Source of the DNA: a virus
Lineage: Duplodnaviria; Caudoviricetes
Strand: one strand, 5' to 3'
Virus record (IMG/VR): IMGVR_UViG_3300032233_001802
Span: 1-60,839 of that record
DNA length: 60,839 bases
Shown here: piece by piece, positions 6,443 through 55,340 of the stretch
Numbering within the stretch: position 1 is the first letter of the stretch
Layout: every line of letters begins with the position of its first letter
Position numbers and translations under genes: made by a program
The notes under the pieces: generated by a model
The model's input: only the letters and a program-made list of their open reading frames with translations
Told to the model about the DNA's origin: nothing
Databases searched by the model: none

Positions 6443-6585
6443 TGATGGAAGGTCATGTCTGTGGCGTTTGTGGGTACGTCTACGAAGAAGACCAACATGG
6501 TCCATTCGAAGATCAGCACGAAGATTGGGCGTGCCCGCATTGCGGTTCAGAAATTGACATGTTTGAAAAGAAACAAATTGAATAA
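6442..6585 (+). CDS. rubredoxin-like protein
   Basis: CGVCGYVY...WACPHCG; TAATG overlap with the ahpC stop. Confidence 0.85.
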   Translation: MMEGHVCGVCGYVYEEDQHGPFEDQHEDWACPHCGSEIDMFEKKQIE

Positions 6586-6874
6586 TGGTAGTAAACTCTT
6601 AGGTAAAGGTATCTTGGACGTGGGTTCGACTCCCACCATCTCCACCAATTAAAGTACCCCAGACGCCTCTCGTAGAAGCGCACCAGCTGGGGTCATCTAC
6701 GGGGATGACATGGCTTTCGACAGGGTAAGTAATAGACAAAGGGCTACCAGAGAGGCGACTGACTTAATCAGCGCAAACCAAGTAAACGCAAACGATGATG
6801 TTTACGACATGGCTCTCGCTGCTTAATTGCAGTATGAGATTACCAGAGTTGACCACTTGTTAACAGAACGGTCA
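6586..6874 (+). ncRNA. ssrA: circularly permuted (two-piece) tmRNA: acceptor piece ~6586-6647, intervening segment 6648-6700, coding piece from 6701; tag (A)ANDDVYDMALAA at 6788-6826
   Basis: The T-arm GTGGG-TTCGACT-CCCAC and CATCTCC-A-CCA 3' end come before the GGGGATG 5' end (7-bp acceptor stem with G3.U70). TGGTAG/CTACCA and TATCTTG/CAGGGTA pair as P2. The tag ends in ALAA-stop. Confidence 0.92.
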
Positions 6875-6909
6875 GGGGTGGTGGTGTAAAAGCCACCACC
6901 CCTTTCTTT
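6875..6909 (+). terminator. Rho-independent terminator ending the tmRNA unit
   Basis: GGGGTGGTGGT-GTAAAA-GCCACCACCCC-TTTCTTT. Confidence 0.85.
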
Positions 6910-6934
6910 CCGCTGCATAAATGGAGGTAACAAC

Positions 6935-38048: not shown

Positions 38049-40172
38049 ATGGCAAATACCGTAAATGTAGGGTTAACAACAACTTCTAATACGTTTAATC
38101 AGTGGCGTATTACAGATAACCTTTTAGCAAATGATGTCAATGAAATTGCTCGCGGCAATTTTACCAAGCCTACAGGCAATGTTACCATCACTGATGGTTT
38201 TTTGACAATTTCAAAATCTTCTGGTGTAACACTTACTGTTGCTTCTGATTCTCGTCAAGCTGGTCTTGCTTCGATTCACTCCATTGAATCTGATGCCGAT
38301 GGTCACGTTTATCTGCCTTCTGGCGACATTACGATGGCTAATCGTGCTTCTGGTGCACTATATCAAGCCAATATTAATACGGTTTTCACTTCTGCAAATG
38401 TCACGATTGGTAATACTACAGTTGGCGGTACGTTCAATGTTTCTTCAAATACATTGATAACTGCTTCTAACGTAGTTATTTCGAATACTCAGGTTGGCGG
38501 CACACTAAACGTTGCTTCGAATACGACAATTACTGCACCTAATGTGACTATTTCAAATACTGGTGCTGGCGGAACTTTCAACGTTGCTTCGAATACTACG
38601 ATCTCTGCGCAAAAAGTTTCAATTTCAAATACGACTGCTGCTGCAAGATTTAATGTATCGCCTAACACATTCTTCTTTGGCGGCTCCGTCAACGTTGCTA
38701 ACACTTCTGGTAGTGCAACGTTTGAAGTTACTCCAAACACTTATCTCTATGCAAGTGCTAATGTCAGCCAAAACGTAAACGTCGGCGCGAAACTAGAAGT
38801 GACAGGCAATGCCTATGTCTACTCTAATGTGATTGTTTCGTGGAACACCTCGACAGGAAACGCTCTAGTTACACAAAATACTTCGACAGGTAATCTATCA
38901 GTTACTCAGAATACTTCATCAGGAAACTTGACAGTATCTCAAAATACAAGTTCTGGTAATTTGTCAGTTACGCAAAATACTGCGACAGGCAATCTATCTG
39001 CTACACAAAATATTTCTTCTGGTAATGTGACTGTAAGCAGAAATACTTCTACTGGTAATCTTTCTGTTACGCAAAATACTTCGACAGGTAATCTATCAGT
39101 TACTCAGAATACGACAACAGGTAATCTGGTTGTTACGACGCTGGCTAATATTGCTACTGCAAATATCACAACTCTTGAACCTATCGCGACACTGAATGTC
39201 GGAAATGCATCGTTTACTGGTACATTAAATGCTGTCACTGCAAATATTAGTTCAACTCTTTGGGTTCAGACTCTAACTGTCAATGATCCAATTGCTGCGC
39301 CAGCGCAGACTTCTTCTTCTCTTTATAGAGTTCGCGGTGGGCTATCTACTCGCGGCGATGGATCTTTCAATGTTAATCTTGGTTCTACAGCTAATGGTGA
39401 AGCGATCCTCAACTTTGATACGACAAATGGAAACGTGTGGCGTGTTACCGAAAATAGTTCAGCTGGAATCTACAAAACTCTATTAACCACTTCTAACGTA
39501 GTAGACTCTATCTCCTCAACAAGTACAGTTAATGCAGCTGCACCAAATTCAGTTAAGACTGTATATGATGCATTAACAACAACTGTCGCGACATTAAATA
39601 CAACTTTTGGCACTGTTAATACAAATTACCAGGCTGCTTATGCTCAGGCTAATACAGCTCGCAGTGACGCCAATACCACGTTTGCAACTGTTAACACCAC
39701 ATTTGGAACAACCAATACTACGTTCGCAAGTCATAATACCACATTTGCAACACTGAATACAACATTCGGTACAGTAAATACTTCGCTATCAACAATGAAT
39801 GCAACGTTTAGTGGAAACGTAACTGGTACTCTAAAGGGTTATAAAGATTATCTAACAACGACAACTTCGACTGGTGCAACGACTGTTGATCTTTCGACTT
39901 CAAACTGGTTCAAGTATACATTGTCTGGACCTTCGACATATACATTCGCTAATGCACCAGCATCTGGTAATGCATTTACTGTTACTCTATTGCTTGTTCA
40001 AGGAAGTGGCGGTAATAAAACTGTTTCTTGGGGCAATACGATTTATTGGGCTGGTGGACAAGTTCCTCCTGCTACAACAACTGCTGCGGGTAATACAGAC
40101 CTATGGACGTTTACAACACTTGATGGTGGATCAACATTCTACGGAACATTGGCAATCAAAGACGCAAGATAG
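38049..40172 (+). CDS. tail fibre-like protein (11-aa NTSTGNLSVTQ repeats, heptads, C-terminal adaptor domain)
   Basis: N-terminal TFNQWR anchor motif; repeats visible in the translation. Confidence 0.8.
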   Translation: MANTVNVGLTTTSNTFNQWRITDNLLANDVNEIARGNFTKPTGNVTITDGFLTISKSSGVTLTVASDSRQAGLASIHSIESDADGHVYLPSGDITMANRASGALYQANINTVFTSANVTIGNTTVGGTFNVSSNTLITASNVVISNTQVGGTLNVASNTTITAPNVTISNTGAGGTFNVASNTTISAQKVSISNTTAAARFNVSPNTFFFGGSVNVANTSGSATFEVTPNTYLYASANVSQNVNVGAKLEVTGNAYVYSNVIVSWNTSTGNALVTQNTSTGNLSVTQNTSSGNLTVSQNTSSGNLSVTQNTATGNLSATQNISSGNVTVSRNTSTGNLSVTQNTSTGNLSVTQNTTTGNLVVTTLANIATANITTLEPIATLNVGNASFTGTLNAVTANISSTLWVQTLTVNDPIAAPAQTSSSLYRVRGGLSTRGDGSFNVNLGSTANGEAILNFDTTNGNVWRVTENSSAGIYKTLLTTSNVVDSISSTSTVNAAAPNSVKTVYDALTTTVATLNTTFGTVNTNYQAAYAQANTARSDANTTFATVNTTFGTTNTTFASHNTTFATLNTTFGTVNTSLSTMNATFSGNVTGTLKGYKDYLTTTTSTGATTVDLSTSNWFKYTLSGPSTYTFANAPASGNAFTVTLLLVQGSGGNKTVSWGNTIYWAGGQVPPATTTAAGNTDLWTFTTLDGGSTFYGTLAIKDAR

Positions 40173-40178
40173 TAGACT

Positions 40179-41681
40179 ATGCCAAGAAATAATGAATTAG
40201 AAAAAACTTGGTTGCCTGGACCTTCGCGTGGAACACAGACGTTCAATGCTCCATCGAATCTAACCATTCCATATGGTCGTCACAAAGCAACTATCTCTGG
40301 AAGTGGTGGTCCTGGAAATTCTCCGACTGCTCAATATGTTGTTAATTACAATACGAACTATAATGTAGCATATCCGATTGCAAATCAGCCAGCGGCTGCA
40401 TATACTATTCTTTATAGTACAAATTACAACACAGTATATCCTGTCGCAACTCAACCAGAAGCATCTCGTCCTGCCACAGCATGGATTACCAATTATAATA
40501 CCAACTATAATGTAGCATATCCAGTCGGCACGCAGCCAATTGCTTCACAGCCAGCGACTGCATATTCAACAAATTACAACGTTGCTTATCCTATTGCCAC
40601 ACAACCAGAAGGCAATAGACCAGCAACTGCGTACAGTATTTTGTATAATACGAATTACAATGTTGCTTATCCTATTGACACACGACCAGAAGCATCTAGA
40701 CCAGCGAATGCATGGAATACAAATTATAACACTGTAAACTCTTACGGAAATACTAATTACAACGTAGTATATCCTACAGGAAATCAGCCATTATTAGGTG
40801 TTCCTTGGTATATGTTAATATATTTGAATGATGTATTGACAGTTTTTGGAAATTCTAATTCTGTTTTAATATATTCTCCAGGAGGAGGAGTATTCAGCCC
40901 AACATATTTCCCATATGAGGGTATGGCACCAGACGGTCTAAGCGGTCCTTCTCCATGGAATAGTGCTAATTTTGGAACAGTTGATGGTAGTAGTGGTTAT
41001 ATTGCACTATCATATTATACTGGGTTAGCAGAATATACTACTAACTACAACGTCGCATATCCAGTTGGTAATACAAACTATAATGTTGCGTATCCTGTCG
41101 GAAATCAACCAGCAACTGCGTACAATATTCTTTACAATACAAATTATAACGTTGCATATCCAGTTGGAACTCGACCAGAAGCATCGCGACCAATAACTGC
41201 GTATTCGATCAACTATAATACCAATTATAATGTTGCATATCCAGTCGCAAATCAACCTGCAACGGCTTGGGTGACGAACTACAATACAAACTATAATGTT
41301 GCGTACCCAACTGCTAATCAGCCATTGGCAACTCAACCAGCGACTGCGTATACTATTCTGTACAATACGAATTACAACGTCGCATATCCGATCGCAAATC
41401 AGCCAGAGGCATCGCGTCCAGTAACTGCGTACTCCACGAACTACAACGTCGCCTACCCAATCGCAACTCAGCCAGAGGGTAATCGTCCAATAACCTCATA
41501 TGTTCCAGGAGATGCTGGGGCTGCGACAACGGTTCTCGGTGTGTACTTCCCAGGTGGTGCAATCGGAAGCCCAGCTCCATACGTTTCTGACACTGTCGTA
41601 CAATATTGGGACTATCCAGACAATTCGAATTATCCAGTCGCTGTTCCTCCAGGTGGACAGATCGTAGTCAAAATCGAATAA
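40179..41681 (+). CDS. NYNVAYP-repeat protein A (6+6 complementary repeat units around a unique centre); putative adhesin
   Basis: Repeats seen directly; termini paralogous to 41726..43390. Confidence 0.85.
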   Translation: MPRNNELEKTWLPGPSRGTQTFNAPSNLTIPYGRHKATISGSGGPGNSPTAQYVVNYNTNYNVAYPIANQPAAAYTILYSTNYNTVYPVATQPEASRPATAWITNYNTNYNVAYPVGTQPIASQPATAYSTNYNVAYPIATQPEGNRPATAYSILYNTNYNVAYPIDTRPEASRPANAWNTNYNTVNSYGNTNYNVVYPTGNQPLLGVPWYMLIYLNDVLTVFGNSNSVLIYSPGGGVFSPTYFPYEGMAPDGLSGPSPWNSANFGTVDGSSGYIALSYYTGLAEYTTNYNVAYPVGNTNYNVAYPVGNQPATAYNILYNTNYNVAYPVGTRPEASRPITAYSINYNTNYNVAYPVANQPATAWVTNYNTNYNVAYPTANQPLATQPATAYTILYNTNYNVAYPIANQPEASRPVTAYSTNYNVAYPIATQPEGNRPITSYVPGDAGAATTVLGVYFPGGAIGSPAPYVSDTVVQYWDYPDNSNYPVAVPPGGQIVVKIE

Positions 41682-41725
41682 TAAGGATAAACTAAATAGT
41701 ATGGTTATCCTTATAGTGGACTAAA

Positions 41726-43390
41726 ATGTCAAAGAGTTCCGATTTAAATAAAAGCTGGATCGGCGCAGGTGCAAGAGGGACGCAAACTTTTAATGCGCCT
41801 AGCAACCTGTCGATTGCCTATGGGCGCTATAAAGGAACAGTTTCTGGTCGCGGTGGTTCGGGAAATGTTCCCACAGCAGCCTCATATGTGATCAATTATA
41901 ACACGAATTATAACGTCGCCTATCCTATTGCGACTCAACCGATCGCAACTCAGCCTGCAACAACTTGGTCGACCAACTATAACGTCGCATACCCAATTGC
42001 AACACAGCCTCTTGCGACTCAGCCAGCAGTAACTTGGTCGACGAATTATAACGTCGCCTATCCTATTGCGACTCAACCAGCCACTGCATACAGTATTTTG
42101 TACAATACAAATTACAATGTTGCTTATCCAGTTGCGACTCGACCCGAAGCATCGCGTCCAGTAACTGCTTATACTATTCTTTATAACACCAATTATAATG
42201 TTGCTTATCCAATCGCAACTCAGCCAGCCACTGCGTATACAATCACATACAATACCAATTATAACGTTGCATATCCGATTGCTAATCAGCCAGCGACTGC
42301 ATACAGTATTACATACAATACCAATTATAACGTTGCATATCCGATTGCTAATCAGCCAGCGACTGCATACAGTATTACATACAACACAAACTACAACGTG
42401 GCGTATCCAGTCGGGAATCAGCCAGCAACTGGAACTAATCCGCAGAATTGGTCTGGATCTTATTTTTATGTCTATGATGCATATCCAGCGTTTACCAGCT
42501 ACTCAAGTGGTCCTGGTTGTCCAGGTTATAGTCCATACAGCACATATTATTTTGATTATTCATTCGGTTATCCAGTGGGAGTATGGACGGGTGGGTATTT
42601 TAGCTGTAGTGGAGGAACTCCAAACTACACTACAAATTATAACGTCGTCTATCCTGTTGCAAATCAACCAGAATCTGGTCGCCCAGTAAATGCATACTCA
42701 ACAAATTACAACGTCGCCTATCCTATTGCAACTCAACCAGAATCTGGTCGCCCAGTAAATGCATACTCAACAAATTACAACGTTGCTTATCCAGTTGCAA
42801 CTCGACCAGAATCTGGTCGCCCAGTAACTGCATACTCAACAAACTATAATGTAGTGTATCCAGTTGCAACTCAGCCTGAAGCATCTAGACCAGCAACTGC
42901 CTATACTATTCTTTATAACACAAACTATAATGTTGCCTACCCGATTGCTACACAGCCTGAAGCATCTAGACCAATTACTGCATATTCAACCAATTATAAC
43001 GTTGCATACCCGATTGCGACTCAGCCAGCCAATGCTTGGGTGAGCAATTATAACACAAACTATAACGTAGCGTATCCGATTGCGACTCAGCCAGCGAATG
43101 CTTGGACGACCAATTATAATACCAATTATAATGTGGCGTATCCGATTGCAACTCAGCCTGAAGCCAATCGCCCAGTTACTTCTTATACTCCAGGAAATAC
43201 TGGAACCGCAACGACTGTTCTTGGTGTCTACTTCCCAGGAGGACCGATTGATCTTTCTGGATTCGCTGGTCCTGCAGGAACTGCACCATATGTAAGCGAT
43301 ACAGTAGTTGCATACTACTCATTCCCAGACAATAGCACTTATCCAGTGGCTGTGCCTTCGGGTGGACAAATTGTGGTTAAAATTGAATAA
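41726..43390 (+). CDS. NYNVAYP-repeat protein B (8+8 complementary repeat units around a unique centre); putative adhesin
   Basis: Repeats seen directly; shares GTQTFNAPSNL and GGQIVVKIE termini with protein A; late-like CTAAATA at 41692. Confidence 0.85.
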   Translation: MSKSSDLNKSWIGAGARGTQTFNAPSNLSIAYGRYKGTVSGRGGSGNVPTAASYVINYNTNYNVAYPIATQPIATQPATTWSTNYNVAYPIATQPLATQPAVTWSTNYNVAYPIATQPATAYSILYNTNYNVAYPVATRPEASRPVTAYTILYNTNYNVAYPIATQPATAYTITYNTNYNVAYPIANQPATAYSITYNTNYNVAYPIANQPATAYSITYNTNYNVAYPVGNQPATGTNPQNWSGSYFYVYDAYPAFTSYSSGPGCPGYSPYSTYYFDYSFGYPVGVWTGGYFSCSGGTPNYTTNYNVVYPVANQPESGRPVNAYSTNYNVAYPIATQPESGRPVNAYSTNYNVAYPVATRPESGRPVTAYSTNYNVVYPVATQPEASRPATAYTILYNTNYNVAYPIATQPEASRPITAYSTNYNVAYPIATQPANAWVSNYNTNYNVAYPIATQPANAWTTNYNTNYNVAYPIATQPEANRPVTSYTPGNTGTATTVLGVYFPGGPIDLSGFAGPAGTAPYVSDTVVAYYSFPDNSTYPVAVPSGGQIVVKIE

Positions 43391-43425: not shown

Positions 43426-43452
43426 TGAAGTTGACAATTGAAGGAATTTTTT

Positions 43453-44052
43453 ATGCCATATCCTGTACAGCGTTATATCCGCCAATTAAATCGTTTCTGT
43501 GTTGCCACCAAAGCCTTTTCTGACGAAGAAGTAGAAAAGATTCTTGATCTAGAAGATCTGCAAAAGTTTCGAAAAGGTTCCGTCGGGACTGGTGTAGTGG
43601 GGCAAGTCAATAAAAAGACCCGCGACAGTGACGTCATGTGGGTCATGCATGATCAAAACTCAGACTGGCTCTTCAGTAAATTTTCTCAGTTAACATCGAT
43701 GGTCAATTACGACCATTTCATGTATGACATTGATGGATTTGAGAGTTTTCAGTACACTGTTTATAAGTCCAAGGACAAGCAGCATTATGATTGGCATGTC
43801 GATGCTGGCAATCTTTCTACTCCATATGAGAGAAAAATCAGTGCAACAATTGTTTTAACTCCACCAGAAAAATATGAGGGTGGAGAATTTGAAATTGTAA
43901 TGGATGGACAAGTTGCATCACCGCAACTATTGAAACCAGAAGCTGGTGATGTAATCTTCTTTGATTCGCGTATGCCTCATCGTGTGCGCCCAGTAACCTC
44001 TGGTGTTCGTAAGTCATTAGTCTGTTGGGTTATGGGAAAGAATGTATGGTAA
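43453..44052 (+). CDS. 2OG-Fe(II) oxygenase, prolyl-hydroxylase-like
   Basis: YDWHVD, RKIS, YEGGEF and HRVRPVTSGVRKSLVCW motifs; AAGGA RBS favours ATG 43453. Confidence 0.92.
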   Translation: MPYPVQRYIRQLNRFCVATKAFSDEEVEKILDLEDLQKFRKGSVGTGVVGQVNKKTRDSDVMWVMHDQNSDWLFSKFSQLTSMVNYDHFMYDIDGFESFQYTVYKSKDKQHYDWHVDAGNLSTPYERKISATIVLTPPEKYEGGEFEIVMDGQVASPQLLKPEAGDVIFFDSRMPHRVRPVTSGVRKSLVCWVMGKNVW

Positions 44053-44780
44053 ACTTGAGAAAACTCAAGTTCTGGGAAAAGCCAATTATTGAATTTTATT
44101 GTCATCCAGACCTTGAAGATGTAATACCTGAGCCAAGACCAGCAGTAAAATATCTGCCAGAATGGTTCAAAGATCTTTCGCCAACTCATGGTGATGAGCG
44201 AGATGCGTTTGGGAATAAGAATATGACTGCAAAGAGATGCCTCCCTTTGCTGGACGGAATGTCTTTGGGTTTTGTTATTCCACTTGCGGGTGATTTGCAT
44301 ATTCGATCGAATCATAACAATAGTCAGATCGAAATTACGAATCCCCCTGCATTAAAGGTGTGCGAGTTTCACAATTCTGATCAAGTCGGTGGTCCTAATG
44401 CAATCAAACAGAAACATGGAAATCCACTAAAATTCCTCAACTGGTGGGTTATTAAAACTGCTCCAGGCTGGTCGACATTGTTTATTCCTCCGATGAATAA
44501 TTTTGAACAGCCGTTTACCTGTTTAGCAGCAATGGTCGATACAGACAAGTATCCAAAAGAAGTTAATTTCCCTGCAACGTTGAATATCACTGATGCTGAT
44601 ATACATATTCCTGCTGGGACTCCATTAATGACGGTGATACCAATTAAACGCGATTCTTTTGATAAGAAGGCGAACGTTCGTAAGATGACTCGTCAAGAAA
44701 TGAAAGAGATTGATAAGATTTCACGCAGACAAAACACAAGAACGCATCATTACACCTATGAATTGAGAGTGAAGAAATGA
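44046..44780 (+). CDS. conserved phage protein often found beside 2OG oxygenases
   Basis: PEWFK...KRCLPLLDGMSLGFVIP...KTAPGWSTLF...VDTD...GTPL...IP. Confidence 0.75.
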   Translation: MVNLRKLKFWEKPIIEFYCHPDLEDVIPEPRPAVKYLPEWFKDLSPTHGDERDAFGNKNMTAKRCLPLLDGMSLGFVIPLAGDLHIRSNHNNSQIEITNPPALKVCEFHNSDQVGGPNAIKQKHGNPLKFLNWWVIKTAPGWSTLFIPPMNNFEQPFTCLAAMVDTDKYPKEVNFPATLNITDADIHIPAGTPLMTVIPIKRDSFDKKANVRKMTRQEMKEIDKISRRQNTRTHHYTYELRVKK

Positions 44781-45532
44781 GCATTTTTAATCTATTCAAT
44801 AATGATAAGCCAGATCTAGAGTTCGTCGATGATAGTGGTAATTTGATTTATCCTCATTATCCGCCAGTACTTGCCAAAGATATAAAACCATTAAAAGAAT
44901 ATCAAGAGAAAAAATTTAATGGTGAATGGACATTTCCGCAATGTCCTGGAATGTTCGACTATTCTAGAATGGGATATATCATTCCTGCATGGAGCAATTT
45001 CCATATAAAGGCTAATAAAGCGGGTCATGTTGCGTTTGTTGGAACTCGCGGAGATCAGCATGATAGACGACCAACTCCTATGAAACAACCAATGCCGATG
45101 GACACCAAAATTGTCGATGGTATGTATCAATTAGAAGATGGAATTTCTCCGTATATTTGGAATTTTCCTGGAGCATGGAAAGTTCATGGTAGAGGAAATG
45201 TGTCAGCATTATTACTTCCACCAGTCTATCACAATCAAAGTTTTCTAAATGACCTTCACATGTATCCAGGTGCAGTAGATTATAAAGGATTCACAACACT
45301 CAATTTTATTGTCACTCCGAAAAGAGCATGCGAAATAGAAATTAAAGCTGGTGATCCAGTTCTTCATGTCATTCCATTTGTAACAAACAAAACAATTACC
45401 GCAAGTTATGGTCCAGCAACGACAGATCAAAAAGATTATGATAAAATTCTTAAATGGTTCCATGAGTCTAATTTCTATCGTCGATATTATATGATTCGTA
45501 AAAAGTATAAGATATTCAAGAAAGTCGATTAA
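44777..45532 (+). CDS. paralog of the preceding conserved protein
   Basis: CPGMFDYSRMGYIIPAW...PGAVD...AGDPVLHVIPF; ATGA overlap. Confidence 0.75.
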   Translation: MSIFNLFNNDKPDLEFVDDSGNLIYPHYPPVLAKDIKPLKEYQEKKFNGEWTFPQCPGMFDYSRMGYIIPAWSNFHIKANKAGHVAFVGTRGDQHDRRPTPMKQPMPMDTKIVDGMYQLEDGISPYIWNFPGAWKVHGRGNVSALLLPPVYHNQSFLNDLHMYPGAVDYKGFTTLNFIVTPKRACEIEIKAGDPVLHVIPFVTNKTITASYGPATTDQKDYDKILKWFHESNFYRRYYMIRKKYKIFKKVD

Positions 45533-46497
45533 TGGCAAAGATATTCGTTAATATATGTTCATATCGTGATAAATTACTTGCTCCCACGATTTGTAGTCTA
45601 CTCGAAACAGAGTCTGGAAGGAATCAAATCACCTATGGAATCTTCGAGCAGACTAAACTCGAAGATTCATTGCAGGTAAAGTATCCAGAGATAGTTAAAA
45701 ATCCAAAAGTCAGATATAAGAGAATTGATCCAGAGTTCTCTGATGGCGTAGTTTGGGCGCGCTGCATCAATTCAATGCAGATCTATGACGAAGAATTCCA
45801 ATACCAGATCGATTCTCACATGCTCTTTGATAAAGACTGGGATCACCAGCTGATCTTAGACTATAACCATACTTCGAAACTAGCGAACACCAAGAAAGTC
45901 CTCCTCACTTCTGGAACTAAGAATTTCGATCTAGATGGTGAACGAATTACCAAGCATACTCTGACAGACGATATCACTGTCAAACTTGGGTATTTCCAGT
46001 TCGATAAAAACCTTCGACTCCATGCTCATGGTCCTTGGGTTCCTGCGACGGAAGTGGCTACTCCATCTATTCACATCTGTGCTGGAAATTTCTTTGCTCC
46101 TGTCAGCTGGATTAAAGACGTCGGATATAATACGAATATCTTCTTCGAAGGCGAGGAACAGATGTTTGTTATCACTTCGATCGTCGCTGGGTATCAGATC
46201 TTCCATCATCGCAAGATTAAGGTCTATCACTATCTGAAATCCAGCAGTCACGAAAGCAAACAGACGATCAATCCAGTCGCCAACCCCGAAAGATTGAAAA
46301 AGAACATAGAAAGGTCCGAGAAGGAACTTGTCAATTACATCTATTCATTGGACGAGGCTCAGCTGGAAAGGTATAGGAAGATCACAGGGGTCGATTATAT
46401 AAATAGAAAATTGGAGAACCGAGCTATTTCTAGAGGTATCTCCATAAACCCAGGAGTCACTAACGACTGGGAAATTCCAGATAGAGGTGATGCATGA
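45532..46497 (+). CDS. GT60-like (Gnt1/Skp1 hydroxyproline GlcNAc-transferase-type) glycosyltransferase
   Basis: IFVNICSYRD, GVVWAR, QIDSHMLFDKDWD and FFEGEE motifs. Confidence 0.85.
   Translation: MAKIFVNICSYRDKLLAPTICSLLETESGRNQITYGIFEQTKLEDSLQVKYPEIVKNPKVRYKRIDPEFSDGVVWARCINSMQIYDEEFQYQIDSHMLFDKDWDHQLILDYNHTSKLANTKKVLLTSGTKNFDLDGERITKHTLTDDITVKLGYFQFDKNLRLHAHGPWVPATEVATPSIHICAGNFFAPVSWIKDVGYNTNIFFEGEEQMFVITSIVAGYQIFHHRKIKVYHYLKSSSHESKQTINPVANPERLKKNIERSEKELVNYIYSLDEAQLERYRKITGVDYINRKLENRAISRGISINPGVTNDWEIPDRGDA
46398..46405 (+). promoter_or_regulatory. T4-type late promoter
   Basis: Exact TATAAATA about 90 nt upstream of ORF 46494. Confidence 0.6.
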
Positions 46498-51457: not shown

Positions 51458-51488
51458 TAAATACAATTAACAGTTTTTGAGAATAAAA

Positions 51489-54400
51489 ATGCCAATAACT
51501 TTAAGCACCATTCTTTCTTCTAATTCCCCTTCTGGTCCATCGGGTCCATCTGGCGTCACTGGTTCTCAGGGTCCACAAGGTCCGCAGGGCGTACAAGGAC
51601 CACAGGGACCAACTGGTATTCAAGGTAGTCAGGGTTCTACTGGCGCACAAGGACCACAAGGTCCTGCTGGTGATACAGGGCAAACAGGTCCACAAGGTCC
51701 TCAGGGTCCTGCTGGCGCTCAAGGTCCACAAGGTCCACAAGGTCTCACTGGTGCACAAGGTCCGCAGGGCGTACAAGGAATACAAGGTCCGCAGGGTGTT
51801 CAAGGTGTCACTGGTGCTCAAGGACCACAGGGTCCACAAGGTGTCACTGGTGCACAGGGTCCTCAAGGACCATCGGGTCCATCTGTAACAGGTGCTCAAG
51901 GACCGCAGGGACCACAAGGTGTCGCTGGTGCACAAGGACCACAAGGTCCACAGGGTGTGAAGGGTGATACTGGATCATTCGGTGGCGCGACCTTCTCATA
52001 CTTCTATTCAACGAATACTTCAAACACTGATCCAACTGCAGGTTATGCAAAGTTTGATAATACTGCTCTTGGTAGTGTAACTACGTTTTATATTAATGCT
52101 GTTGATGATAGTGGAGCGAATGCGTACAATTATTTACAGACAATTGATGATTCAACGTCAAGTATTAAGGGAACATTTAAAGTTTCTAATACTCAAAATG
52201 TACTTGAATTTGCGTTCTTTAATATTACTGGTCTTCATGATCACAGCGGAAACTTCTTCTATGTTCCAGTTCAATGGGTGAGTGGTAATACGTCATTCTC
52301 TAATGGATCTAATAATCTTATCACGTTTGTAAGAACTGGTGATAAAGGTGATACTGGTGCGCAAGGTCCTACTGGTCCTTCTGGTCCTGCAAATGGTCCA
52401 TCTGGACCAGTAGGGGCACAAGGTCCATCTGGACCAGTAGGGGCACAAGGTCCTCAAGGTCCACAAGGTGTCACTGGTGCACAGGGTCCACAGGGTGTTA
52501 TTGGAGCGCAAGGAGCAACTGGTGCACAAGGACCGCAGGGTCCATCGGGTGCTCAAGGTATTGAGGGTCCGCAAGGTCCACAAGGTCTAAAGGGTGATAC
52601 TGGAGCACAAGGACCACAAGGTCCAGTTGGCGCTCAAGGTCCACAGGGTGTTGCTGGTCCACAGGGACCACAAGGTCCATCTGGTGCTCAAGGTATTGAG
52701 GGTCCACAAGGTCCACAAGGTCTAAAGGGTGATACTGGATTTACTGGTGCGCAAGGTCCACAAGGACCACAAGGACTACAAGGTGCTACTGGTGCACAGG
52801 GTCCACAGGGTGTCACTGGTGCACAAGGTCCACAGGGTCCATCAGGCGTTGAAGGTCCACAAGGTGTAGTTGGTTCACAAGGACCACAAGGACCACAAGG
52901 TCTAAAAGGCGACACTGGAAATACTGGTGCACAGGGTCCGCAAGGACCACAAGGTGTCACTGGTGCACAGGGACCACAAGGTCCATCGGGTGCTCAAGGT
53001 ATTGAGGGTCCACAAGGACCACAAGGTGTCGCTGGTGCACAAGGACCGCAGGGTCCATCGGGTGCTCAAGGTATTGGGGGTCCACAAGGACCACAAGGTG
53101 TCGCTGGTGCTCAAGGACCACAGGGTCCACAAGGTGTCACTGGTGCACAGGGTCCTCAAGGACCAAGTGGTCCAAATGCTAATGCTGCATATGATCAGGC
53201 TAATGCTGCTTATAGTCAGGCTAACTCAGCATATAATGCTGCGAATAATGCTCAAGTTACAGTATATGCAAACAGCGCTTCTGCAAAGACTACGCAGAAG
53301 ATTAATTTTGCAAATACTGCAACAATTCAAGTAGCAGTAAGTGCTGATGGTGCAAATGCTAATGTTGAGTTTGTCACTATTGGCGACTCTTCAGCTGGTA
53401 CTGTTCAAGCTGCATATGCTGCCGCCAATACTGCTAATACGAATGCGTTGAACGCCTATAGCGGTGCAAATACAGCTAATACGAATGCATTGAATGCATA
53501 TGGTGCCGCCAATACTGCTAATACCAATGCACTAAATGCCTATGGTCAAGCGAATGCTGCATACAGTCAAGCCAATGCTGCATATAATCAAGCCAATACA
53601 AGTTATCTACCTTCAGTAACTCGCCTTGATGTAACTAATAGCGGCGCAAGCGCATATCGATTTGATCAATATGGATCAGCAGTTGATGATCCAACACTAT
53701 ATGTCCGCGCTGGCGAGACGATTGCATTTAATTTAAACAATGCTGGACACCCATTCGCGATTCGCGTTTCTGACGGTGGTGCCAATTACGATACTGGCTT
53801 AACCCATGTCGCGACTAATGGCACAGTGAGCACTGGCTCCTCTGCACAAGGAAAGGTTGCTGGAACATTATACTGGAAGGTTCCATCTACACTAGGTGGA
53901 AACACCTATGTCTATCAGTGTACAGCCCATGCAGGAATGGTTGGTAACATTGTTATCGAACCACCAATGGTTATTGCTTATGCTCAAGCAAATACAGCAA
54001 GAGATACGGCAAATGGTGCATATTCTCAAGCCAATAATGCATATCTTGCCGCTAATAATTCTAACTTAAAATCAGGTGGTACAATTACTGGTGATCTACA
54101 AGTTACTGGTAACATCTATCTCGGTACAGGCAATGTATCTTATATCAACGTAAGCAGTATCGCTGTTAACGATTCTGTCATTCTTCTCGCGACAAATAAC
54201 TCATCGGATGCAATTGATATTGGTATTATTGGACGATATTCAAATTCACCAAATCTACACACTGGATTCCTTCGAGATTCTGTAACTAAGAAGTGGCATA
54301 TCTTTGACGGTTATGGACCAGAACCAAGCAATAACAACGTTGACTTGGCTGTTTCTAATACTGCCACACTTGTTGCTAATCTTGAGGCTAACAGCATTAC

Positions 54401-55340
54401 TCTTGTCGGTAATGTAGTGGCAACAGCAGGTAATACTGCTAATGCGTATGCTCAAGCGAACGCTGCATATGGTCAGGCAAATGCTGCATACAGTCAAGCC
54501 AATACTGCACGCAGTGATGCGAATACAACCTTTGCGACTATTAATACGACGTTTGGTACTATCAATACCAATGCAACGAATATTAATTCTAATGGGTTGA
54601 ATGCATATGGTCAGGCAAATGCTGCATACAGTCAAGCAAATACAGCTCGTTCTGACGCGAATACAACATTTGCAACTGTTAATACAACGTTTGGTACTAT
54701 CAATACCAATGCAACGAATATTAATTCCAATGGGTTGAATGCATATGCTCAGGCTAATGCTGCTTATGGTGCTGCAAATACTGCTAACACTAATGCACTA
54801 AATGCTTATGGACAGGCTAATGCAGCCTATACCCAAGCAAATACTGCTCGTAGTGATGCGAATACTAGTCTTGCTACCCATAATACGACATTCTCTACTG
54901 TCAATACAACATTCGGCACGATTAATACAACATTTGCAACTGTTAATACAACGTTTGGTACTATCAATACTACGTTCACTGGTAATGTTACTGGAACGTT
55001 GAAGGGCACTAAAGACTTCATGATCACTAGTACCAGTACAACAACTTCCAACACCATTGATCTATCTGTATCAAACTACTTCAGACATACGCTGACTGGT
55101 AATACGACATTTACGTTTGCTAATGCTCCAGCTTCTGGTAATGGTCAAATGGTTTCTGTTCTAATTATCCAGGATGCAACTGGTGGCAGAACAGTAACAT
55201 GGGCAAATACTGTATACTGGGCTGGTGGAACTTCACCTCCTGCAACAACTACAGCAAATGCAAGAGATCTATGGACGTTCTTTACTTATGATGCAGGTTC
55301 AACCTTCTGGGGCACATTGACAATGAAGGATGTTAGATGA
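51489..55340 (+). CDS. collagen-like fibre protein with cupredoxin-like module and C-terminal adaptor domain
   Basis: Long (G-P-Q)-type tracts; AYxQAN heptads; GHPF...CTAHAGM; C-terminus paralogous to 38049..40172. Confidence 0.88.

What the first reader, a model, noticed from the sequence alone, without database searches (positions are those of the whole stretch)
40179..43390. Two paralogous proteins with a protein-level inverted repeat: N- and C-terminal repeat arrays obey a strict pairing code
Seen: each repeat unit is an N-block (short xSTNYN or long xxxxYNTNYN), then VAYP, then a P-block (single xxxQP or double xxxQP-xxxRP/QP). Reading outward from the unique centre, every long N-block faces a double P-block on the other arm and every short N-block faces a single P-block: 8/8 unit pairs in protein B and 6/6 in protein A, although the two proteins use different unit orders. 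Variant identity is also matched: ILY faces EASRP, ITY faces ESGRP, (I/V)NY faces E(G/A)NRP, and WxxNY faces (I/L)A(S/T)QP. The one irregular unit in A (extra GNTNYN) occurs on both sides of the centre. Inference: the chain folds back as a long antiparallel hairpin stalk whose register is written in a complementary code, with both termini forming a Gly-rich base domain. The arms are not DNA inverted repeats, so gains and losses of units must be selected, or generated, in coordinated pairs. I do not recognise this architecture from any described family.
Basis: partly seen in the sequence, partly recalled or inferred. Interest (0 to 1): 0.95.

Follow-up and report, generated by a model that had tools for sequence, protein, structure and literature searches.

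The report
Mirror-coded fold-back phage fibre proteins
Two neighbouring genes of an uncultured T4-like water phage encode repeat proteins whose first and second halves fit each other block by block when one is read backwards, so each chain most likely runs out, turns at an exchangeable tip and runs back in a register fixed by a sequence code.

Summary
Genes 40179-41681 (A, 500 aa) and 41726-43390 (B, 554 aa) each read: conserved N-terminal part, repeat arm, unique centre, repeat arm, conserved C-terminal part. In mirror order, a long N-block always faces a double P-block: 1 of 60 unit orders fits in A and 1 of 6720 in B.

The rule holds in relatives with 1 to 13 units per arm. 373 of 394 facing pairs agree; shuffles reach 247 at most. 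Block identities also pair (xLY-EASRP 48/52, ITY-E[S/T]GRP 25/27). Covariation is concentrated in the inserted tetrad and the opposing inserted pentad (z up to 20.6).

AlphaFold places the N- and C-terminal parts in one confident beta-sandwich, but leaves the arms unfolded. The fold-back stalk is therefore inferred from covariation, not seen in a model.

A few relatives have unmatched arms. No Pfam, PHROG, NCBIfam or PDB sequence match and no deposited phage carries the family. The closest known design is the T4 gp37 needle.

This scan has already noted the same family on two other genomes, and similar mirror-coded fibres elsewhere (AI notes).

The parts
40179..41681 (+). Gene A, 500-aa fold-back repeat protein
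   Evidence: ORF; 69 relatives; no Pfam, PHROG or NCBIfam family
40179..40352 (+). A, conserved N-terminal part (aa 1-58) of the base domain
   Evidence: AF2 pLDDT 70-94 for residues 11-60; conserved columns K9 T10 W11 F22 Y32 G33 G41 G46
40353..40790 (+). A, arm 1 (aa 59-204): 6 units, the innermost irregular (extra degenerate anchor YNTVNS plus GNTNYN)
   Evidence: Parse; spacings
40791..41039 (+). A, unique central cassette (aa 205-287), proposed distal tip
   Evidence: Longest anchor-free stretch; a different cassette from B, and it contains no Cys
41040..41489 (+). A, arm 2 (aa 288-437): mirror partner of arm 1, including the 11-residue VGNTNYNVAYP piece
41490..41678 (+). A, conserved C-terminal part (aa 438-500) of the base domain
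   Evidence: AF2 pLDDT 76-96 for residues 431-500; the VIA alignments need both terminal parts
41726..43390 (+). Gene B, 554-aa paralogue with a different unit order
   Evidence: ORF; 62% identity to A in alignment A1; 60 representatives
41726..41902 (+). B, conserved N-terminal part (aa 1-59)
   Evidence: Aligns with A and all relatives
41903..42424 (+). B, arm 1 (aa 60-233): 8 units. The three innermost ITY units are recent tandem DNA copies (42188-42357 against 42254-42423, 86% identical)
42425..42631 (+). B, central cassette (aa 234-302) with two Cys (265, 294), the common NP...CP...C type
42632..43174 (+). B, arm 2 (aa 303-483): 8 units. The three innermost ESGRP units are recent tandem DNA copies (42626-42763 against 42695-42832 at 91%, and against 42764-42901 at 79%)
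43175..43387 (+). B, conserved C-terminal part (aa 484-554)

Best explanation
A and B are structural fibre or adhesin proteins of an uncultured T4-like aquatic myovirus, built as fold-back stalks.

Proposed anatomy:
- The first ~55 and last ~70 residues of a chain co-fold into one small beta-sandwich base.
- From the base the chain runs outward through arm 1, forms an exchangeable 70-170-residue cassette at the far end, and returns through arm 2 antiparallel to arm 1.

Arm grammar:
- An arm is a string of Tyr tetrads (xxYx: ATAY-S, ILYN, TNYN, VAYP) and Pro pentads (xxx[Q/R]P).
- The constant parts face constant parts.
- An optional extra tetrad in one arm always faces an optional extra pentad in the other. 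This is why a 22-residue unit faces a 23-residue unit.
- The residues of that tetrad choose the kind of pentad: L with EASRP, T with E(S/T)GRP, N with EA(A/N/T)RP, and a polar first residue with a hydrophobic [ILV]xx[Q/R]P pentad.

Proposed role of the code:
- The order of plain and extended units is aperiodic, so only one register fits.
- The arms of paralogue A do not fit those of B. The code would therefore act as a register lock and keep the two co-expressed proteins from mispairing.

What is shown and what is inferred:
- Shown: the mirror rule, the covariation, and the predicted co-folding of the two termini.
- Inferred: physical arm-arm contact, that the pairing is within one chain, the oligomeric state (a trimer is likely by analogy with other phage fibres), the central cassette as receptor-binding tip, and docking of the base on the virion.
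For: 1. The genes lie inside a T4-like baseplate and fibre module. PHROG hits cover baseplate hub, wedge and tail fibre proteins. The gp6-like protein is about 39% identical to those of Pelagibacter, Methylophilales and Synechococcus phages.

2. Mirror rule in A and B: 8/8 and 14/14 parsed pairs agree. One of 60 and one of 6720 unit orders fit.

3. Generality:
- 69 relatives were found. One search gave 55 IMG/VR loci, which hold 32 full-length ORFs.
- Spacing ladders are complementary for 13/13 (L011_7566), 10/10 (L009_7965), 9/9 (L002_5225), 8/8 (L001_9778) and 6/7 (L001_7992) units.
- Pooled over 94 unique proteins, 57 could be parsed. 373 of 394 facing pairs agree in length, against a within-protein shuffle mean of 214 and maximum of 247 in 2000 shuffles.
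- On 40 distinct architectures, 337 of 350 pairs agree.

4. Identity code among the 230 long/double pairs:
- xLY with EASRP: 48/52.
- ITY with E(S/T)GRP: 25/27.
- INY with EAARP, EANRP, EATRP or EQARP: 89/100.
- xNY with [ILV]xx[Q/R]P: 44/44.
- Mutual information is 1.68 bits, against a null mean of 0.65 and maximum of 0.84; 0 of 2000 shuffles reach it.

5. Residue covariation is local:
- N-block position 7 with pentad position 3: 1.09 bits, z 20.6.
- N-block position 6 with pentad positions 1, 3 and 4: z 11-12.6.
- The facing first pentad reaches z 6.4 at most, and facing anchors z 5.0 at most.

6. Register specificity:
- Shift 0 gives 6/6, 7/7, 13/13, 10/10 and 8/8 in five of the six proteins tested, and 6/7 in the sixth (L001_7992).
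- Shifts of one to three units give at most half.
- A arm 1 against B arm 2 gives 1/6, and B arm 1 against A arm 2 gives 1/6.
- Mirror order beats same order: 13/13 against 5/13, and 10/10 against 2/10.

7. Base domain:
- In AF2 models of A and of the 300-aa relative P0036, both terminal parts have pLDDT above 90.
- VIA aligns 80-97 residues of these models onto single 105-150-residue beta-sandwich domains. That is more than either terminal part holds alone.
- The only strands AF2 draws inside A's arms are 183-188 (YNTVNS) and 301-306 (YNVAYP). These are the two anchors that the ladder puts opposite each other.

8. Paired growth: the innermost three units of each arm of B are the most similar DNA copies, at 86% and 91%.

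9. The centre is a swappable cassette. Several unrelated types sit between the same kind of arms.
Against: - No structure model folds the arms. pLDDT is 31-47 in A and 36-50 in P0036. Contact is therefore inferred from sequence statistics only.
- Covariation cannot tell an intra-chain hairpin from arm 1 of one chain pairing with arm 2 of another.
- Relatives with unmatched arms exist:
  - P0001, P0117 and P0118 (456, 456 and 434 aa, on 4 contigs) have 2-3 units in arm 1 and 6-7 in arm 2.
  - P0015 has 5 against 2.
  - P0022, P0027 and P0120 differ by 27-aa steps, with 3:2, 2:4 and 3:4 units.
  - All are metagenome assemblies. Repeat collapse is possible for the last group, but the P0001 design recurs with sequence differences and is probably real.
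- 21 of 394 facing pairs disagree. 16 lie in eight proteins of the subfamily with 8-residue mini-repeats, which uses another dialect and which my strict anchor pattern reads out of step. 5 lie in P0015, P0037, L003_6146 and L011_5151.
- Many of the 94 sequences are close relatives, so the z-scores are inflated. The dereplicated counts are given beside them.
- The staggered-register model I derived predicts that ATAY-type blocks face each other at unit offset -1. The test was inconclusive: four cells with z of 7.5 or more at that offset, but also one each at offsets 0 and +2.
- The best structural matches of the base are weak, with Z at most 5.6.
Confidence: 0.72

Rival explanations
1. The arms pair antiparallel, but between chains. 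Arm 1 of one subunit lies against arm 2 of another, as a head-to-tail dimer or a swapped trimer. The protein is then a symmetric rod with central knobs, or a swapped fibre, rather than a single-chain hairpin.
For: The mirror code is satisfied equally by inter-chain antiparallel pairing. AF2 monomers do not fold the arms, as expected if partners are needed.
Against: Both terminal parts co-fold confidently within one chain in two models, although a swap could mimic this. The centre is a compact cassette flanked directly by the innermost units of both arms, which suits a turn. Known phage fibres with a returning chain, such as T4 gp37, return within the chain: its D10 domain is made of residues 811-881 and 1010-1026 (PMC6957217, passages read).
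Confidence: 0.12
2. The arms do not touch each other. Both lie on a third, periodic partner, for example the shaft of the upstream fibre protein or another copy of the complex. Their unit lengths must then match the partner, not each other.
For: The family genes always follow a fibre-like gene, and no model shows arm-arm contact.
Against: A common ruler would demand equal lengths in the same or mirror order. It would not demand the 4-against-5 residue rule, nor the specific pairing of tetrad residues with pentad types. Unit order differs between A and B and among relatives, while the upstream protein's repeats are of an unrelated kind.
Confidence: 0.07
3. The repeats form a locally stacked solenoid or a disordered Pro/Tyr/Asn-rich linker. 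On this view the mirror pattern is a by-product of how tandem repeats were duplicated around the centre.
For: The sequence is of low complexity (N, A, Y, T and P make up about 70% of the arms). AF2 leaves it unstructured. Units do arise by tandem duplication.
Against: The facing blocks are not homologous: a Tyr tetrad faces a Pro pentad. There is no DNA inverted repeat, so no duplication process is known to me that would write the pattern. The pattern survives in 40 distinct architectures. Only register 0 fits. Disordered linkers would not conserve an aperiodic order.
Confidence: 0.05

Closest known systems
Receptor-binding tip ('needle', domains D10-D11) of the phage T4 long tail fibre protein gp37 (structure 2XGF recalled; description read in passages of PMC6957217)
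   Same: It is a fibre of a T4-like phage in which the chain leaves a small domain, runs to the distal tip and returns. The proximal domain is therefore made of two separated segments: D10 is residues 811-881 plus 1010-1026. The receptor-contacting part sits at the turn.
   Different: - gp37's needle is held by seven iron atoms bound by His of the three chains (PMC6957217). A and B have 0 HxH motifs and 1 and 0 His.
- There is no sequence or profile match to any PDB chain, and gp37 is not among the listed fold matches.
- The arms here are 141-176 residues, and about 305 in relatives. They are built of 1-13 modular units with a 4-against-5 residue pairing code.
- The tip is an exchangeable cassette.
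gp38-type adhesins of T2-, T6- and S16-like phages (recalled, not fetched or tested here)
   Same: These are small proteins encoded directly behind a distal fibre gene. They have a conserved attachment part and hypervariable distal segments that set host range.
   Different: As I recall, gp38 uses a polyglycine-II sandwich with glycine-rich motifs. The arms here have almost no Gly and are Tyr-, Asn- and Pro-rich. No PHROG family was hit. Docking on a fibre tip is not shown here.
Phage 'glycine-rich domain' proteins (Pfam PF21722, Gly_rich_2)
   Same: - They are the nearest ESM Atlas clusters, at 0.80, which is a lead only.
- They recur among weak BFVD hits.
- By eye, the start T-[FW]-x-A-P ... 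G-x-G-G-x-G and the end G-G-x-I-V-V resemble the domain's ends as seen.
   Different: There is no HMM match at E up to 10, in the proteins or in the window. The profile-profile probability is 0.11. If related at all, the base would be a minimal form with the whole stalk inserted in a loop.
Other 'mirror-coded fold-back fibres' noted by this scan (AI notes, not literature). Two of them are on the same family (e1-6114934 and e1-6114940)
   Same: Two halves match when one is read backwards. They are found in fibre or baseplate genes of uncultured T4-like phages, and the notes give the same reading.
   Different: Most of the others are Thr-rich or Arg/aromatic residue-by-residue codes in much longer proteins. 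This family pairs non-homologous blocks (tetrad against pentad) in discrete units.

Membership tests
T4 gp37-type fold-back needle | The proximal domain is built from two chain segments that flank the stalk | tested here: met
   By prediction only. The N- and C-terminal parts have pLDDT above 90 in two models. The VIA alignments of 80-97 residues need both parts.
T4 gp37-type fold-back needle | His-x-His motifs that bind iron along the needle | tested here: not met
   0 HxH motifs; 1 His in A and 0 in B
T4 gp37-type fold-back needle | Sequence or fold similarity to gp37 or gp12 tip domains | tested here: inconclusive
   The profile search of PDB sequences found only two chance-level rows, E 0.05 and 0.095. 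The fold searches list no gp37 chain, but the arms are unfolded in the models.
T4 gp37-type fold-back needle | Homotrimer | not testable with these tools
   The one complex job gave no verdict (see Tried and rejected)
gp38-type tip adhesin | The gene lies directly downstream of a fibre gene | tested here: met
   A starts 7 nt after the 707-aa fibre-like ORF 38049-40172. A homologue of that ORF covering at least half of it was found in 15 of 55 related loci, and mostly lies just upstream of the family gene.
gp38-type tip adhesin | Glycine-rich motifs forming a polyglycine-II sandwich (feature recalled) | tested here: not met
   The arms are rich in N, A, Y, T and P, and Gly is not among the eight commonest residues. 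No PHROG hit.
Pfam PF21722 Gly_rich_2 | A match to the family HMM at the curated cut-off | tested here: not met
   No match at E up to 10 in the terminal parts, in P0036, P0047, P0068 or P0069, or in the window. hhalign of A2 against five true domains gave probability 0.11.
Collagen-like fibre | Gly-X-Y triplet repeats | tested here: not met
   0 runs of three G-x-y triplets in A and 1 in B. The Pro period is 5, not 3.
New family defined here (mirror-coded fold-back proteins with a TNYN-VAYP core) | A conserved N-terminal part (KTW...F...YG[RQK]...G.G..G), a conserved C-terminal part ([LF]G[VI]..PG ... GG.I.V), and two arms whose unit spacings are complementary in mirror order | tested here: met
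   A and B carry all the motifs. 45 of 57 parseable members are fully concordant.

The most novel reading that the evidence does not exclude
These proteins carry a modular, readable pairing code for protein strands, analogous to base pairing in an RNA stem. Interchangeable 4-residue Tyr blocks specifically recognise 5-residue Pro blocks on the antiparallel partner strand. An aperiodic order of such rungs sets the register, the length (1 to 13 units per arm) and the self-versus-paralogue specificity of a new kind of fibre fold. If so, stalk length and tip could be re-engineered by adding matched unit pairs, and the code could be reused to design register-specific beta-type zippers.
Probability: 0.45. 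Interest if true: 0.9.

Novelty: new variant of a known kind. Interest (0 to 1): 0.8.

Why it matters
Phage fibres decide which host is infected, and their repetitive shafts are hard to solve or predict. This family offers three things.

1. Its architecture can be read from sequence alone. The base is made of both termini, the stalk length is set by the number of matched unit pairs, and an exchangeable tip cassette sits in the middle of the gene.

2. It shows position-specific covariation between blocks up to several hundred residues apart. That is direct, testable evidence for a long antiparallel assembly that structure predictors miss.

3. It suggests a principle, an aperiodic rung code that fixes the register and keeps two co-expressed paralogues apart. 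This is of interest for protein design and for understanding how repeat proteins gain and lose units without losing their fold.

The family is found only in uncultured aquatic T4-like phages: it has no match in 50,697 deposited phage records. It is therefore also a marker of an unstudied adsorption apparatus.

Tried and rejected
Family and similarity searches
- Pfam, PHROG and NCBIfam scans of A, B, their terminal parts and four relatives gave no family.
- tblastn of A, and of its non-repetitive C-terminal part, against 50,697 phage records gave no match. Megablast of the baseplate region gave no match either.
- A profile search of PDB sequences gave only chance-level rows.

Fold searches
- Foldseek against PDB gave nothing at E of 0.001 or better. 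Foldseek against BFVD gave the same result.
- VIA-align gave at best Z 5.6 and 5.2, to generic beta-sandwiches (CD109/macroglobulin domains, TNF/C1q-like domains, virus pentons). I take this only as 'one compact beta-sandwich'.
- The row for the cyanophage Pam3 fibre (7ypx_A, Z 5.0, 26% identity over 81 residues) does not stand above its neighbours. I saw only search listings and abstracts of the Pam3 papers.

Gly_rich_2 lead
- The ESM Atlas pointed to it.
- It was tested by HMM on the window, by collecting seven true domains from a related phage record, and by profile-profile comparison. Probability was 0.11, so I rejected it as membership.

Complex prediction
- I sent the N-terminal half of A (1-138) and the C-terminal half (356-500), three copies each, with my alignment.
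- The verdict was 'no answer': score 0.13 against a mark of 0.32, and the controls were not run. This is neither for nor against binding.

Other tests
- My staggered-register model was tested for covariation between facing ATAY-type blocks. The result was inconclusive.
- The long proteins P0074, P0079, P0080, P0083 and P0086 from the representatives search have none of the family motifs and are low-complexity false hits.
- A first, looser anchor pattern picked up chance motifs inside the centres and gave wrong arm lengths, so I dropped it.

Literature
- The searches (fold-back fibre wording; three motif strings) found no description of this family.
- Of PMC6957217 and PMC12143355 I read only the passages returned.

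DUF6065 side path
- Homologues in haloarchaeal viruses lie beside DNA polymerase and thymidylate synthase, not beside fibres. Its link to the fibre genes is therefore uncertain.

Full report
**What is there**

The finding's coordinates are exactly two same-strand ORFs: A at 40179-41681 (500 aa) and B at 41726-43390 (554 aa). They lie in the structural module of a T4-like myovirus.
- Upstream ORFs hit PHROG families for baseplate tail tube cap, hub/lysozyme and wedge subunits. A 1125-aa ORF downstream hits tail-fibre families.
- The gp6-like wedge protein is about 39% identical to those of Pelagibacter phage HTVC008M, Methylophilales phage Melnitz and Synechococcus phages.
- The record is a 60.8-kb virus contig with estimated completeness 35%.

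**Anatomy**

Each protein has five parts:
- a conserved N-terminal part (about 58 aa);
- arm 1 (A: aa 59-204; B: 60-233);
- a unique centre (A: 205-287; B: 234-302);
- arm 2 (A: 288-437; B: 303-483);
- a conserved C-terminal part (63-71 aa).

A simpler grammar emerges from the parse. The N-block plus core is a run of Tyr tetrads (ATAY-S, ILYN, TNYN, VAYP, with Tyr every fourth residue). The P-block is a run of Pro pentads. Unit lengths are then 18, 22 (one extra tetrad), 23 (one extra pentad) or 27 (both).

Spacings between successive ...YP anchors, read from the outer ends inward:
- A: arm 1 is 22,27,23,27,(23+11) and arm 2 is 23,27,22,27,22,11.
- B: arm 1 is 23,23,22,27,22,22,22 and arm 2 is 22,22,23,27,23,23,23.

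So 22 faces 23, 27 faces 27, and the odd 11-residue piece of A is present on both sides of the centre.

Further checks:
- All parsed facing pairs agree: 8/8 in A and 14/14 in B. The remaining outermost and irregular pairs were read by eye and also agree.
- Exact enumeration: one of 20 (length) or 60 (identity) distinct orders of the arm-2 units fits in A, and one of 840 or 6720 fits in B.
- Same-order pairing fails: 3/7 in B and 0/4 in A.
- There is no DNA inverted repeat.

**It generalises**

- A word-index search found 69 relatives.
- An exhaustive HMMER search of 1.84 billion representatives found only 60 hits. Several of the long ones are low-complexity false hits.
- A scan of IMG/VR gave 55 loci holding 32 full-length ORFs. 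11 loci carry two tandem paralogues, as here.
- Members range from 275 to 854 aa, with 1 to 13 units per arm.
- The spacing ladders stay complementary. L011_7566 reads 27,27,23,22,22,23,23,22,22,27,23,23,23 against 27,27,22,23,23,22,22,23,23,27,22,22,22, which is 13/13. L009_7965 gives 10/10, L002_5225 9/9, L001_9778 8/8 and L001_7992 6/7.

Pooled counts:
- Of 94 unique proteins, 57 could be parsed with a strict anchor pattern.
- 373 of 394 facing pairs agree: 143 short/single, 230 long/double and 21 discordant. Within-protein shuffles give a mean of 214 and a maximum of 247 in 2000.
- On 40 distinct architectures, 337 of 350 pairs agree.
- 45 of the 57 proteins have no exception.

**A code of identities**

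Among the 230 long/double pairs:
- xLY faces EASRP in 48 of 52.
- ITY faces ESGRP or ETGRP in 25 of 27.
- INY faces EAARP, EANRP, EATRP or EQARP in 89 of 100.
- xNY (TNY or SNY, after W or Y) faces a hydrophobic [ILV]xx[Q/R]P pentad in 44 of 44.
- Mutual information is 1.68 bits, against a null mean of 0.65 and maximum of 0.84 (0 of 2000 shuffles).

Position by position, the signal sits in the inserted tetrad and the inserted pentad of the opposite arm:
- N-block position 7 with pentad position 3: 1.09 bits, z 20.6.
- N-block position 6 with pentad positions 1, 3 and 4: z 11-12.6.
- The facing first pentad reaches z 6.4 at most, and the facing cores z 5.0 at most.

The z-values are inflated by related sequences. 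The contrast between positions is not.

**Register and specificity**

- Sliding one arm by one to three units leaves at most half of the spacings complementary.
- A's arm 1 fits B's arm 2 in 1 of 6 spacings, and the reverse combination also fits in 1 of 6.
- The aperiodic order therefore defines a single register and distinguishes the paralogues. I read this as the function of the code. That is an inference.

**The base**

- AF2 with my alignments gave mean pLDDT 50.8 for A and 64.1 for the 300-aa relative P0036.
- In both models the N-terminal part (about residues 11-60) and the C-terminal part (the last 70-75 residues) reach pLDDT above 90. The arms stay below 50.
- VIA-align puts 80-97 residues of these models onto single 105-150-residue beta-sandwich domains, with Z at most 5.6. 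That is more residues than either terminal part holds, so the two parts are modelled as one domain. The Z-values are too low to name a fold family.
- The only strands drawn inside A's arms are 183-188 and 301-306. These are the two anchors that the ladder places opposite each other.

**How it most likely works**

The chain leaves the base, runs out through arm 1, forms the central cassette at the far end, and returns antiparallel through arm 2.

From the covariation I derived a staggered register. The 13-residue TNYNVAYP+pentad segments of the two arms lie antiparallel to each other. The ATAY-type blocks face each other. Each optional tetrad:pentad pair is an extra rung between them. This explains the 22/23 asymmetry and why only the optional blocks covary. 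Its one further prediction gave an inconclusive result, so it remains a proposal.

If the arms were fully extended strands (about 0.33 nm per residue, textbook value), the stalks would be roughly 45-58 nm in A and B. A more compact packing is equally possible.

The oligomeric state is unknown. I expect a trimer by analogy with other phage fibres.

The central cassettes are of several unrelated types between like arms. B's type has two nearly invariant Cys, and A's has none. Together with the gene position, this suggests a receptor-binding tip.

**Evolution**

- In B, the three innermost arm-1 units (ITY type; DNA copies 86% identical) face the three innermost arm-2 units (ESGRP type; 91% and 79% identical).
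- Recent tandem duplications thus occurred at mirror positions next to the tip. This is what selection for matched arms predicts.
- Irregular units are also mirrored in a relative: the GPALPGNQP...TFNT.YP element appears in both arms of L002_3427.

**Results against the reading**

- No model folds the arms, so cross-arm contact is not seen in any structure.
- Some relatives have unmatched arms:
  - P0001, P0117 and P0118 (on 4 contigs, with sequence differences, so probably real) have 2-3 against 6-7 units. Their outer units still obey the code.
  - P0015 has 5 against 2.
  - P0022, P0027 and P0120 carry only identical 27-aa units and differ in copy number (3:2, 2:4, 3:4). This may be real variation or assembly ambiguity.
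- The subfamily with 8-residue mini-repeats (VSYNVAYP and the like) uses another dialect. My strict parser is out of step there and yields 16 of the 21 discordant pairs. For P0016 the summed unit lengths still match by my own count from the parse: 136 against 135 residues.

**Comparison with what is known**

- The nearest described design is the T4 gp37 tip. Its D10 domain is made of residues 811-881 and 1010-1026, and its needle carries seven His-bound iron atoms (passages of PMC6957217). The topology is the same. The chemistry, length, modularity and sequence are not: 0 HxH motifs and no PDB sequence match.
- The tail-fibre atlas paper lists a T4-like needle class, but the passages I saw mention nothing like this family (PMC12143355).
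- The gp38 adhesin analogy rests on gene position only.
- The Gly_rich_2 lead failed its tests.
- Searches for the motif strings and for fold-back wording found no paper.
- AI notes of this scan record the same family on two other genomes, and about twenty other mirror-coded fibre findings. I treated them as leads, not evidence.

**Verdict**

The fold-back stalk with a register code is the best explanation (confidence 0.72). It awaits a structure. I class it as a new variant of the fold-back fibre-tip design, with a pairing principle that has not been described.

Noticed in passing
window 43438-46497: Four genes lie directly behind B: a 2OG-Fe(II) oxygenase (PF13640), two DUF6065 paralogues and a PF11397 'GlcNAc' glycosyltransferase. 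The block is conserved behind the family genes. The oxygenase is present in 48 of 55 loci, DUF6065a in 47, DUF6065b in 44 and the transferase in 38. In 20 of 21 loci with full-length family ORFs the oxygenase starts 25-81 nt after the last one. From recall, PF11397 includes the Skp1 hydroxyproline GlcNAc-transferase, so the Pro pentads might be hydroxylated and glycosylated. This is untested, and one literature search found nothing on phages. DUF6065 homologues in haloarchaeal viruses lie beside DNA polymerase, which weakens the link.
   Followed up: partly
window 39450-40169 and 51477-55337: The last ~190 residues of the 707-aa fibre-like protein just upstream of A are 55% identical (E 2e-63) to the C-terminus of the 1287-aa collagen-like fibre protein. 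Two fibres thus share one end domain, and there are two fold-back proteins.
   Followed up: partly
window 6555-6917: ARAGORN calls a permuted tmRNA gene with tag peptide ANDDVYDMALAA in this phage contig.
   Followed up: no
P0022, P0027, P0120 (relatives): These are near-identical proteins built only of one 27-aa unit type. They differ by whole units (315, 342 and 369 aa) and have unequal arms. Either homogeneous arrays tolerate slippage, or short-read assemblies cannot count the copies.
   Followed up: partly
P0068, P0069, P0085 (distant relatives): They keep the N- and C-terminal parts but have quite different arms, rich in Asn, Pro and Gly with N-P-x-x-P-G-N-like motifs. In P0068 a ~65-aa stretch recurs nearly unchanged in both arms in the same orientation. 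The base-plus-two-arms plan may be older than the TNYN-VAYP repeats.
   Followed up: no
L011 5151-7487 and L009 5903-7942 (first paralogue in related loci): Other repeat dialects occur. These include a 12-residue P-block EGNVTPGAPTRP, units that start directly with EAARP, and NAAVYP anchors. By summed spacings the arms still balance in L003_6146, at 180 against 180.
   Followed up: partly
G002 (record of L029), about 73.9-90.7 kb: Seven Gly_rich_2 (PF21722) domains lie in a cluster of large ORFs in a related phage record that also carries the fold-back family's C-terminal part.
   Followed up: no
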